IMG/VR virus record: IMGVR_UViG_3300029288_000075
Coordinates: 123,858 to 187,857 of that record
Origin: a virus
Lineage: Duplodnaviria > Caudoviricetes
Reading direction: 5' to 3' (one strand)
DNA length: 64,000 bases
Position 1 is the first letter of the stretch. Each line of letters opens with the position of its first letter. Below the pieces are notes generated by a model. It did no database searches. It was not told where the DNA came from and saw only the letters and a list, made by a program, of their open reading frames with translations. Made by a program: the position numbers and the translations under genes. Positions 2,550-42,938 of this stretch are shown one piece after another.

Positions 2550-3752
2550 ATGTACACACAAAGCGACTACAACGTTGGAAATGATTCAGCCACAACGGCA
2601 GCCATAGCTCGAGTGCTTGCCTACTTGCGCATCGGAGAGGCGGAACAACAGCGCCTGGTAGACCACTGCGCTCGAAACATCCCCCGGGATCGCTACGTGC
2701 ATCCCAAGCTCATGAGCTTCTCCACGGAGTACAAGGACGAGCGAGACGAGCAGTTCAGCAAAGGCGCCAAGGAACGGGCAAGGTTGTGCGTCATCTACGA
2801 CCGTAAGGGGCAAAAGGAGGCCATGCTGATTCATCGGCATGCATTGAGCCACCTTTGCGAAATTGCCGGATTGGACGGCAGGTACAGGGCCAAGTTGGAC
2901 GTAGACAGCGCGGATGCGTGGCGGCGCGACTTGCTGGCTACCAACTTGAAAGAGCTGTTTGCCAAGCAGCGCTTCCTGAACAAGCTGAAGAGGGAGGCAG
3001 AGTTCTTGCACCGCATTGTGGGCAACGAGTTGCGAGCGGTCCTGACGCAGAGCTACAACAGGCACTTGGTAAGTACTGCGGTGCTGCAGCCCTTCTTGGC
3101 AGCCTGTCAGGAGGTAGGGTTGCAGCCAGCCAAGGCCACAGTGTCTGACATGAAGGTGCACTTGCAGACGTACCTGCCTTTTGCCTTTCAGCCGGTGCCT
3201 GGTGAGTTCGTAGCCATCGGCACCTGCTGGACAAACAGCGACTTCGGTGAGGGCAAGTTGCGTATCAGCCATAGCGTGCTTCGGCTGAATGGTGGCGGCA
3301 ACCTCGTTACTGAGGATGCCTTCAGTCGCATGCACATTGGTTCGGTAGTTCAGGATACGGACATGAAGCTCAGCGACGAGGTCGCCATAAAGGAGCTCGA
3401 GGCCGTGGCTGCAGCTACTCGTTCGGCTGTGCTCGAGGCCATGACACCAGACCGCGTGAACCTTCTGCTGCGTGCAATTCAGAAGGCGGCGGAAGAGAAA
3501 GTGCCGTGGTACCAGATGAAGGACCAGCTTGCCAAGATCTTGAGCAAGGGTGACCTGGACACCATTGAAGGGCTTTTGGAGGCTGAGATAGAAGACCTAC
3601 CACCCCCAGGGGTAGGAAGCGATGGACAGCCTTTGCCCTCGAGGTGGTGGGCTGCGGCTGCCTTGTCCCACCTGGCGGAGAAGACGGCGGACCCAACTAA
3701 AGCTATGGAGATCAAGGCGGCGGCTGGTTCATTCTTGAACTCCGCCAAGTAG
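2550..3752 (+). CDS. DUF932/DUF945-like phage protein
   Basis: NSDFGEGKLRI..VLRL..GG..V and SRMHIG resemble the NSxxGxG..RLxCxNG..RxHxG signature. Confidence 0.6.
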   Translation: MYTQSDYNVGNDSATTAAIARVLAYLRIGEAEQQRLVDHCARNIPRDRYVHPKLMSFSTEYKDERDEQFSKGAKERARLCVIYDRKGQKEAMLIHRHALSHLCEIAGLDGRYRAKLDVDSADAWRRDLLATNLKELFAKQRFLNKLKREAEFLHRIVGNELRAVLTQSYNRHLVSTAVLQPFLAACQEVGLQPAKATVSDMKVHLQTYLPFAFQPVPGEFVAIGTCWTNSDFGEGKLRISHSVLRLNGGGNLVTEDAFSRMHIGSVVQDTDMKLSDEVAIKELEAVAAATRSAVLEAMTPDRVNLLLRAIQKAAEEKVPWYQMKDQLAKILSKGDLDTIEGLLEAEIEDLPPPGVGSDGQPLPSRWWAAAALSHLAEKTADPTKAMEIKAAAGSFLNSAK

Positions 3753-42177: not shown

Positions 42178-42438
42178 ATGGCTGGCAACCTCATTGAACT
42201 TCCTCGTAAGCTCGAGTGGAAACCGGTGGACACGTGGATTGGTAAGGTGCGTGGCACCCTGCTGTGGACCAAGGCCGAGGAGAAGGAAGGTGGCGGCTAC
42301 TACTGGTCCGCCTGGAACGGCCCAATCCTGGTGAACAGCGGAGAAGCTCCTGATATGGCGCAGGCGCGCAAGCGTGCCGAGGAAGCTTTGGAGACCGGGG
42401 TTCTGGTGGTGCGGCCACTTCCTCAGCAAGGTACTTGA
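42178..42438 (+). CDS. Hypothetical protein, probably leaderless
   Basis: TTGTAC-N18-TACCTT with extended TG; ends 6 nt before ATG. Confidence 0.65.
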   Translation: MAGNLIELPRKLEWKPVDTWIGKVRGTLLWTKAEEKEGGGYYWSAWNGPILVNSGEAPDMAQARKRAEEALETGVLVVRPLPQQGT

Positions 42439-42464
42439 CGACCTGCGCTAGATGCGTATCCTAT

Positions 42465-42915
42465 TTGGATGCTGAGCAGGCTTTGACAGTCAGCCCTCTA
42501 CGGGCGCTTCCATGCTTCTGGCGTTGCTCGTTGTGCTTGGTGATAGCTGCAACGGGGATATAGCTCAATGGTGGAGCAGTCGGCGTAAAGAACCGAAAGG
42601 CTGCGAGTTCGACCCTCGCTTTCCTCGCCGGCGGATGGAGATGCCGCAACACCGTGGCACTCCATCTGTCGCTATTTCGGGGCTACGAGAAAACGGGTTG
42701 CCCCGTTGTTCTCGTTGGTCCTCACCCTACTCGTCGGACCATTTGCACGCACCTACCAGTGTGGTTGGTGCATACAGCTACAAGTTCGCTCCAGCTCCGT
42801 GCTGCCTCGCAGCGTACCGCGGAGAGTATGTGCTGCTTTGCACAGTCCGCTGAGAGGTCGCAGCGAGGCGTCCCATCTGCGGGGTCGCCCATGCATTCTG
42901 GTGCCCCGCAGAAGA
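42465..42915 (+). ncRNA. Candidate large structured ncRNA surrounding the tRNA-like element
   Basis: Six hairpins in a 500-bp gap lacking a credible CDS; TTGACG-N16-TATCCT at 42435-42462. Confidence 0.5.
42554..42630 (+). tRNA. tRNA-like element with non-canonical anticodon arm (identity undetermined)
   Basis: Acceptor GGGGATA/TTTCCTC; D-arm GCTC-AATGGTG-GAGC; T-arm GCGAG-TTCGACC-CTCGC; anticodon stem TCGG/CCGA with 9-nt loop CGTAAAGAA; ends GCCG. Confidence 0.75.
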
Positions 42916-42938
42916 AACTAACCCCAAAGCAAGTGGGT

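What the first reader, a model, noticed from the sequence alone, without database searches (positions are those of the whole stretch)
42435..42938. Candidate novel large structured ncRNA built around the tRNA-like element
Seen: the largest gap without a credible CDS has a sigma70-like promoter (TTGACG-N16-TATCCT) and contiguous hairpins. These lie at 42522-42554, 42629-42671 (GCGGATGGAG/CTCCATCTGT), 42679-42722 (ACGAGAA..AACGGG/CCCGTT..TTCTCGT), 42749-42771, 42804-42869 (long bulged stem GCCTCGC/GCGAGGC) and 42876-42912 (TCTGCGGGG/CCCCGCAGA). Many G-U pairs favour the + strand RNA. Established: large phage ncRNAs such as GOLLD and ROOL often sit beside tRNAs; I cannot match this one to a known class. 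Inference: one ornate RNA of about 450 nt, or a polycistronic sRNA precursor cut at the tRNA mimic.
Basis: partly seen in the sequence, partly recalled or inferred. Interest (0 to 1): 0.72.

Follow-up and report, generated by a model that had tools for sequence, protein, structure and literature searches.

The report
Phage frameshift tRNA with matching minigene
The supposed 450-base RNA is really a small gene, two hairpins and a 195-base cassette in which an odd phage tRNA carries four bases that exactly match a frameshift site in a tiny gene just upstream, which points to a natural, still untested four-base decoding switch.

Summary
Not one large ncRNA. The 3' half (42722-42946) is a conserved Cys-rich gene on the minus strand, and its hairpins show no covariation. 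The hairpins at 42629-42722 are a 3' trailer/terminator that also exists in a relative lacking the tRNA. What is real is a discrete cassette (42435-42630). It holds a sigma70-type promoter, an apparently leaderless 5-codon minigene ending in CUU UGA C (the prfB +1 shift motif), a short hairpin, and 23 codons in the +1 frame under protein-level selection with no conserved start codon. It ends in a strongly covarying tRNA whose 9-nt anticodon loop keeps U-AAAG, the complement of CUUU. The layout recurs in 10 other distinct loci of this ~187-kb phage group; 4 were found by the loop alone and all carry the minigene, with a Pth2-like gene downstream. This genome has no Pth2. Best reading (0.6): the tRNA drives the +1 shift in its own leader. 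There is no experiment, no codon/anticodon covariation in my set, and the charging identity is unclear. The scan noted Pth2-linked versions on other DNA before (e.g. e1-5858063); I found no paper describing it.

The parts
42178..42438 (+). Upstream flanking gene, 86 aa, unknown function (P0001); the cassette is inserted at its stop codon
   Evidence: Homologues; relative L038 has this gene followed directly by hairpin 1 with no cassette
42435..42462 (+). sigma70-type promoter (-35 TTGACG, 16 nt, -10 TATCCT); the -35 box overlaps the upstream stop codon
   Evidence: a TTG-/TA- box pair at the same spacing in 9 of 10 homologous cassettes; transcription start inferred, not measured
42469..42486 (+). 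Five-codon minigene M-L-S-R-L-stop, starting 6 nt after the -10 box (apparently leaderless)
   Evidence: Start codon exactly 4 codons before CTT in all 11 loci (9 ATG, 1 GTG, 1 ACG), 6-9 nt after the -10 box in 10 of 11
42481..42487 (+). +1 shift site CUU UGA C (quadruplet CUUU at 42481-42484), the same heptamer as in prfB
   Evidence: Invariant in 11 of 11 loci; prfB motif per PMC5009743
42493..42505 (+). Short hairpin 8 nt after the quadruplet, candidate 3' stimulator
   Evidence: A 4-5 bp hairpin at this place in all close loci with variable loops; a different hairpin about 10 nt after the site in the distant loci; role inferred
42485..42553 (+). 23 codons in the +1 frame (D-S-Q-P, then a hydrophobic helix), with no conserved start codon of its own; ends exactly at tRNA position 1. 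The frame stays open to 42853
   Evidence: Synonymous/non-synonymous pairs 69/47 against at most 38/69 in other frames, 0 of 2000 shuffles; 0 of 1000 for codons 8-23 alone; 69 nt without indels in 6 loci
42554..42630 (+). tRNA with a 9-nt anticodon loop (42584-42592; AAAG at 42587-42590), variable acceptor stem and discriminator, ending in CCG instead of CCA; the only tRNA in the genome
   Evidence: 13 of 22 pairs change on both sides, 0 of 500 shuffles; loop positions 3-7 invariant in 13 tRNAs
42629..42672 (+). Hairpin 1, a conserved 3' trailer structure; predates the cassette
   Evidence: z -5.99; covariation; present in L038 without the tRNA
42679..42722 (.). Hairpin 2, probable (bidirectional) terminator between the converging units
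   Evidence: Terminator-like on +; on - it follows the stop of the Cys-rich gene with a GCAA loop and a U run; duplicated behind both minus-strand genes in L003
42722..42946 (-).
   Evidence: no Pfam match
42939..43349 (-). Downstream flanking gene, 136 aa; the + strand ORF 42654-43103 is its shadow
   Evidence: Homologues; substitutions fall at its third codon positions; the + ORF has stops in L008

Best explanation
The cassette is a tRNA-gated +1 frameshift switch. Shown: the layout, its conservation, selection on the +1 frame and on the tRNA fold, and the exact match of the loop (AAAG) to the shift site (CUUU). Inferred: a sigma70-type promoter makes a leaderless transcript. Ribosomes start at its first AUG and reach CUU UGA C after four codons. 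Without the phage tRNA, RF2 terminates after five residues. With it, the enlarged loop steps over four bases, by four-base pairing or by AAG on CUU followed by a slip to AAA on UUU, and translation continues in the +1 frame. The tRNA is cut from the same transcript (RNase P, 3' trimming, CCA addition). In related phages the shifted ribosomes run on towards a Pth2-like gene. In this genome Pth2 is absent and the output is a short hydrophobic peptide whose frame runs into the tRNA itself, so shifting probably also feeds back on tRNA maturation. The output is the weakest step.
For: Start + 3 codons + CTT TGA C at fixed spacing in 11 of 11 distinct loci; background is about 0.002-0.003 per 120 nt. 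Four loci (L058, L063, L076, L079) were retrieved by the tRNA loop alone and all have the minigene within 125 nt upstream. The +1 frame is under protein-level selection but has an in-frame stop 4-8 codons upstream and no start codon in the window, L003, L009 and L011. The tRNA stems covary strongly while U-AAAG never changes. The loop-closing pair is C.A or U.C and never Watson-Crick in 6 of 6, as expected for positions 32.38 (own knowledge), which places U33 before AAAG and A37 after it. Promoter, leader and tRNA are gained or lost together (L038). In L058 the +1 frame stop overlaps the Pth2 start codon, and in L076 it ends 13 nt before it. Precedent: a glass-sponge mitochondrial tRNA-Gly with a 9-nt loop matching its +1 shift site (PMC5009743).
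Against: No experiment. All 11 loci have the same CUUU/AAAG pair, so I saw no codon-anticodon covariation, and the loci belong to one phage group (capsid 79-81% identical for two of the distant ones). The acceptor stem and discriminator vary (G, U, A), so no synthetase identity is evident and charging is unproven. CCA is not encoded. CUU UGA C shifts with the normal host tRNA-Leu in prfB, so a special tRNA is not strictly needed. L041 has ACG instead of ATG. No other gene in the genome needs a CUUU shift, and Pth2 is absent. In L063 and L079 the +1 frame stops well before Pth2. The hydrophobic peptide is not conserved in the distant loci.
Confidence: 0.6

Rival explanations
1. The leader is an RF2-level sensor that shifts with the ordinary host tRNA-Leu, as prfB does. 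The phage tRNA does something else, or pairs with the leader outside the ribosome.
For: The heptamer is exactly the prfB site, including the weak UGA-C stop. The loop could form 5 pairs with CUUUG using one U.G.
Against: There is no room for the Shine-Dalgarno stimulator that prfB uses (PMC5009743) in a leaderless 5-codon ORF. It leaves the invariant AAAG unexplained. Predicted cis pairing of loop and site is below 0.001.
Confidence: 0.15
2. The tRNA is not charged. It binds the CUUU site, or a host protein such as an anticodon nuclease or synthetase, as a decoy or stalling ligand.
For: The acceptor identity and discriminator are not conserved, no CCA is encoded, and the CCG end is paired into hairpin 1. 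Only the L-shape and the loop are conserved.
Against: Many functional tRNA genes lack CCA (own knowledge). The +1 frame is under protein selection, so something must shift ribosomes. A protein decoy does not explain the fixed link to the minigene.
Confidence: 0.13
3. It is a tRNA-Phe with an extended arm and anticodon AAA that supplements ordinary UUU decoding, and the minigene is incidental.
For: ARAGORN calls Phe(aaa) in every locus; U-AAA-G fits U33-anticodon-purine 37.
Against: It needs a never-paired 31-39 position. The phage prefers UUC over UUU (630 vs 322). It does not explain 11 of 11 linkage to the shift site. AAA on UUU at C-UUU would itself give the +1 shift.
Confidence: 0.07
4. 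One ornate ncRNA of about 450 nt.
For: Overall folding z of -3.75 and contiguous predicted hairpins.
Against: The 3' half is a conserved antisense gene with no covariation. Its z (-3.0/-3.6) is reached by 2-3 of 25 background windows. No Rfam family other than tRNA matches. The parts are modular (L038, L003).
Confidence: 0.03

Closest known systems
prfB (RF2) autoregulatory +1 frameshift (PMC5009743)
   Same: Identical CUU UGA C site after a short zero-frame ORF; the product lies in the +1 frame; competition with RF2 at a weak stop.
   Different: Five codons instead of 25; apparently leaderless with no internal Shine-Dalgarno stimulator; a 3' hairpin instead; a dedicated matching tRNA in the same transcript; the product is not RF2 (no RF gene in the genome).
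+1 frameshift-suppressor tRNAs (sufD, SufB2, sufJ) and engineered quadruplet tRNAs (10.1101/2020.12.31.424971; PMC9094753)
   Same: Enlarged anticodon loop complementary to a four-base site; SufB2 reads a triplet first and slips later, which AAAG on CUUU would also allow.
   Different: Natural and conserved rather than a selected mutant; loop of 9 nt rather than 8; encoded next to its own target site; variable acceptor identity.
Iphiteon panicea (glass sponge) mitochondrial tRNA-Gly with a 9-nt loop (as reviewed in PMC5009743)
   Same: Natural 9-nt loop whose four central bases match a +1 shift site.
   Different: Mitochondrial repair of inserted bases, not a phage regulatory cassette; no minigene.
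GOLLD / ROOL large phage ncRNAs
   Same: Phage non-coding region with a tRNA.
   Different: No Rfam match; no large conserved structure; the 3' half is protein coding.
Scan-internal minigene + expanded-loop tRNA + Pth2 modules (AI notes e1-5858063, e1-4035620, e1-4036337; not literature)
   Same: Minigene, four-base site and matching 9-nt-loop tRNA; I recovered the CUUU/Pth2 form myself.
   Different: Here Pth2 is absent, there is a single tRNA, and the shifted frame encodes a selected hydrophobic peptide ending at the tRNA.

Membership tests
Large ornate phage ncRNA (GOLLD/ROOL type) | Match to an Rfam model | tested here: not met
   Only tRNA passes
Large ornate phage ncRNA (GOLLD/ROOL type) | Covarying structure over several hundred non-coding bases | tested here: not met
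   0 of 45 pairs covary in the 3' half, which is coding; the leader is unstructured and coding
tRNA (RF00005) | Cloverleaf with D and T loop consensus, supported by covariation | tested here: met
   45.5 bits; 13 of 22 pairs compensatory
tRNA (RF00005) | 7-nt anticodon loop | tested here: not met
   9 nt in all 13 tRNAs; the closing position never pairs
tRNA (RF00005) | Processed, CCA-bearing and aminoacylated | not testable with these tools
   CCG encoded; variable acceptor; no RNA run listed
+1 frameshift-suppressor / quadruplet tRNA | Enlarged loop complementary to a four-base site where a frame must change | tested here: met
   AAAG vs CUUU in all 10 loci with the tRNA in view
+1 frameshift-suppressor / quadruplet tRNA | Codon and anticodon change together | tested here: inconclusive
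   No variation in either across my loci; earlier scan notes claim covariation elsewhere, which I did not check
+1 frameshift-suppressor / quadruplet tRNA | Promotes the +1 product in a reporter | not testable with these tools
   Needs an experiment
prfB-type programmed +1 frameshift | CUU UGA C after a short zero-frame ORF, with the selected product in the +1 frame | tested here: met
prfB-type programmed +1 frameshift | Internal Shine-Dalgarno stimulator just 5' of the shift site | tested here: not met
   The 12 nt upstream are the variable minigene codons; no conserved SD
prfB-type programmed +1 frameshift | Product is RF2 | tested here: not met
   No PF00472 match in the genome
Minigene-tRNA-Pth2 module (scan notes) | Pth2-like gene downstream of the tRNA | tested here: not met
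   None in G000; present in L058, L063, L076, L079 and 2.1 kb away in L003
tmRNA / Y RNA (YrlA) | Rfam match and interrupted or permuted tRNA-like domain | tested here: not met
   Contiguous ordinary-order cloverleaf; no tmRNA or YrlA hit

The most novel reading that the evidence does not exclude
The phage tRNA is a natural four-base decoder for CUUU that acts both on its own leader and in trans on the host prfB message, which carries the same CUU UGA C site. It would then override RF2 autoregulation during infection, with the leader as a built-in feedback reporter.
Probability: 0.2. Interest if true: 0.92.

Novelty: new variant of a known kind. Interest (0 to 1): 0.74.

Why it matters
Natural tRNAs with enlarged loops are rare, and the review consulted knew none shown to mediate frameshifting; the best candidate was in sponge mitochondria (PMC5009743). 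A compact 195-bp cassette that carries both the tRNA and its target site can be cloned and tested directly for natural four-base decoding. It may offer an evolved quadruplet tRNA for code expansion. Because the site equals the prfB site, it raises the testable idea that a phage manipulates host RF2 levels. It also shows that hairpin-rich phage gaps can hide small genes and recoding signals.

Tried and rejected
Rfam at gathering and E-value thresholds found only tRNA. blastn against 50,697 phage records gave only short tRNA-arm matches. Five scans of viral contigs with flanking proteins or close motifs found nothing; a sixth, with a narrower loop pattern, was also empty. One pattern scan each of viral, metagenome and genome contigs gave 10, 4 and 5 matches. 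The viral and metagenome ones were chance hits; the five genome-contig hits were not inspected one by one. Sequencing runs: no RNA holder listed, which says nothing on expression. Stop-codon recoding of the phage was rejected: all three stops are used and about 82% is coding under table 11. Genome-wide use of CUUU as a code word was rejected: CTTT ranks 189 of 256 at candidate +1 junctions. ORFs 42512-42853 and 42654-43103 as ordinary genes were rejected: the first has no conserved start (ATG in the window, ATC/ATT/GTT/GTC elsewhere) and is the tail of the shifted frame; the second is a shadow of minus-strand genes. The tRNA body shows no protein-level selection. A Pth2 alignment was too divergent to search for covarying modules. 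Relaxed ARAGORN output was noise. Five paper searches found no description of such a phage cassette. The host was not identified.

Full report
Context. The window is the last 64 kb of a 187,857-bp, 99% complete virus record. It encodes a major head protein, a terminase, a DNA polymerase and a fused multi-subunit RNA polymerase. The nearest cultured relatives are remote (capsid 29% to Salmonella phage Arash), and the host is unknown. The element at 42554-42627 is the only tRNA in the genome.

Checking the observation. The promoter motif, the tRNA-like element and the hairpins are in the sequence, and the region folds better than shuffles. To test whether it is one RNA I collected syntenic loci through the flanking proteins: L003, L006, L008, L009 (partial), L011, L041 and L038. 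The comparison splits the region into four parts.

The 3' half is a gene. 42722-42946 on the minus strand encodes a 74-aa Cys-rich protein with homologues at 81% and 73% identity and more distant ones in L003 and L038. Variable columns fall 23/11/48 on the three codon positions. The three hairpins named in this stretch have no compensatory change in 45 pairs, and 21 pairs are broken in at least one homologue. Their folding score is reached by 2-3 of 25 ordinary windows.

The two middle hairpins are real but independent. Hairpins 42629-42672 and 42679-42722 favour the + strand and show covariation. Relative L038 has them directly behind the upstream gene, with no promoter, leader or tRNA. The second looks like a terminator on both strands. 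So 42435-42630 is a discrete cassette of about 195 bp inserted between a gene and its 3' structure.

The leader is translated with a frameshift. In every locus a start codon lies exactly four codons before CTT TGA C, and in 10 of 11 it lies 6-9 nt after the -10 box, which suggests a leaderless message. In the six close loci with a full leader, the 69 nt between this site and the tRNA have no indels. They vary like protein-coding DNA in the +1 frame only: 69 synonymous against 47 non-synonymous pair differences, not reached in 2000 column shuffles. The result holds for codons 8-23 alone and with L041 added. That frame has a stop 4-8 codons upstream in four loci and no conserved start, so it can be reached only by a +1 shift (inference). 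CUU UGA C is the prfB shift site (PMC5009743), but here there is no room for the prfB Shine-Dalgarno stimulator; a small hairpin 8-10 nt downstream is conserved instead.

The tRNA matches the site. Thirteen of 22 pairs change on both sides among six sequences, yet loop positions 3-7 are always U-A-A-A-G. The pair that would close a 7-nt loop is C.A or U.C in all six, typical of positions 32.38 (own knowledge). The natural reading is therefore a 9-nt loop with U33, then AAAG, then A37. AAAG is the reverse complement of CUUU; AAG fits the zero-frame CUU and AAA the +1-frame UUU. The acceptor stem and discriminator are not conserved and CCA is not encoded, so the amino acid, and charging itself, remain open.

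Independent test. A scan of viral contigs for the loop and T-arm alone, filtered with a covariance model of the six tRNAs, gave four further distinct loci (L058, L063, L076, L079). All four have a promoter, start + 3 codons + CTT TGA C and a hairpin within 125 nt upstream, against a background of about 0.003 per 120 nt. Three have two such tRNAs in tandem, and all have a Pth2-like gene downstream. In L058 the +1 frame ends on the Pth2 start codon and in L076 13 nt before it; in L063 and L079 it ends earlier. Two of these records are phages of the same group (capsid 79-81% identical) that lack the upstream gene of our locus, so the cassette has moved within the group. These loci are kin, not unrelated witnesses, and none shows a different codon-anticodon pair.

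How it most likely works. Shown: layout, conservation, selection on the +1 frame and on the tRNA fold, and complementarity. Inferred: transcription from the promoter, leaderless initiation, processing of the tRNA from the same transcript, and a tRNA-dependent +1 step at CUUU in competition with RF2. Whether four bases pair at once or three pair and slip cannot be told; SufB2 does the latter (10.1101/2020.12.31.424971). In the Pth2-linked relatives the likely output is Pth2 expression, which fits minigenes being a source of peptidyl-tRNA drop-off (own knowledge). This genome has no Pth2, no release factor and no other CUUU-dependent gene that I could detect. Here the output is a 28-residue hydrophobic peptide ending at the RNase P site, or its extension through the tRNA, which would let shifted ribosomes limit tRNA maturation. 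A trans effect on host prfB is possible but untested.

Comparison and verdict. It works like prfB in its site and like a frameshift-suppressor tRNA in its loop, but it fails membership of prfB (no SD stimulator, no RF2) and is unproven as a suppressor. It is not a GOLLD/ROOL-type RNA. The review consulted lists only a few natural tRNAs with odd loops, including a sponge mitochondrial 9-nt one matching its shift site, and my paper searches found no phage cassette of this kind. I reached the frameshift reading from the homologue alignment before consulting earlier scan notes. Those notes then pointed to Pth2-linked versions, and I confirmed the CUUU form myself.

Noticed in passing
L076:2333-2721 (-) and L105:1089-1477 (+): Three tandem tRNA-like genes of 123-130 nt, each with a similar ~50-nt insert in the anticodon arm, about 600 nt from the cassette on the other strand.
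   Followed up: no
L077:2763-2840 (-), L089:3119-3196 (-): Another tRNA with a 9-nt loop (ACUUAGAGA) in a different phage; no matching minigene was looked for systematically.
   Followed up: no
L042:4605-4678 and L043:3466-3537 (mycobacteriophages IkeLoa, Myrna): The tRNA called Pyl(cta) near the peptidyl-tRNA hydrolase gene appears to have a 9-nt loop, and a start codon plus in-frame TAG sits just before the annotated start of that gene. These are cultured phages and would be easy to test.
   Followed up: partly
L044, L046, L047 near 2990-3001 (huge phages LR756500, LR756504, LR756501): Pth2-like genes have an in-frame TAG at codon 3; amber-suppressor tRNAs lie nearby in two of them. Either an amber-gated version of the switch or general TAG recoding.
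   Followed up: no
L003:3857-4330: A 104-aa gene is inserted between hairpin 2 and the Cys-rich gene, followed by a second copy of the hairpin 1 tail and hairpin 2: a modular insertion site.
   Followed up: partly
L008:1004-1180: The Cys-rich gene has a replaced or degraded N-terminal half in this relative.
   Followed up: no
window 42507-42538 and 43814-43846: A 33-nt, 85% match (E 0.008) between the leader and the 414-aa minus-strand ORF; probably chance.
   Followed up: no
G000:C1:52188-58583 (outside the window): A 2131-aa protein joining two RNA polymerase beta-type halves in one chain.
   Followed up: no
L058, L063, L076, L079, ~110 nt before Pth2: A conserved long stem with an inner hairpin ends at the Pth2 ribosome-binding site, a likely translational control element.
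   Followed up: partly
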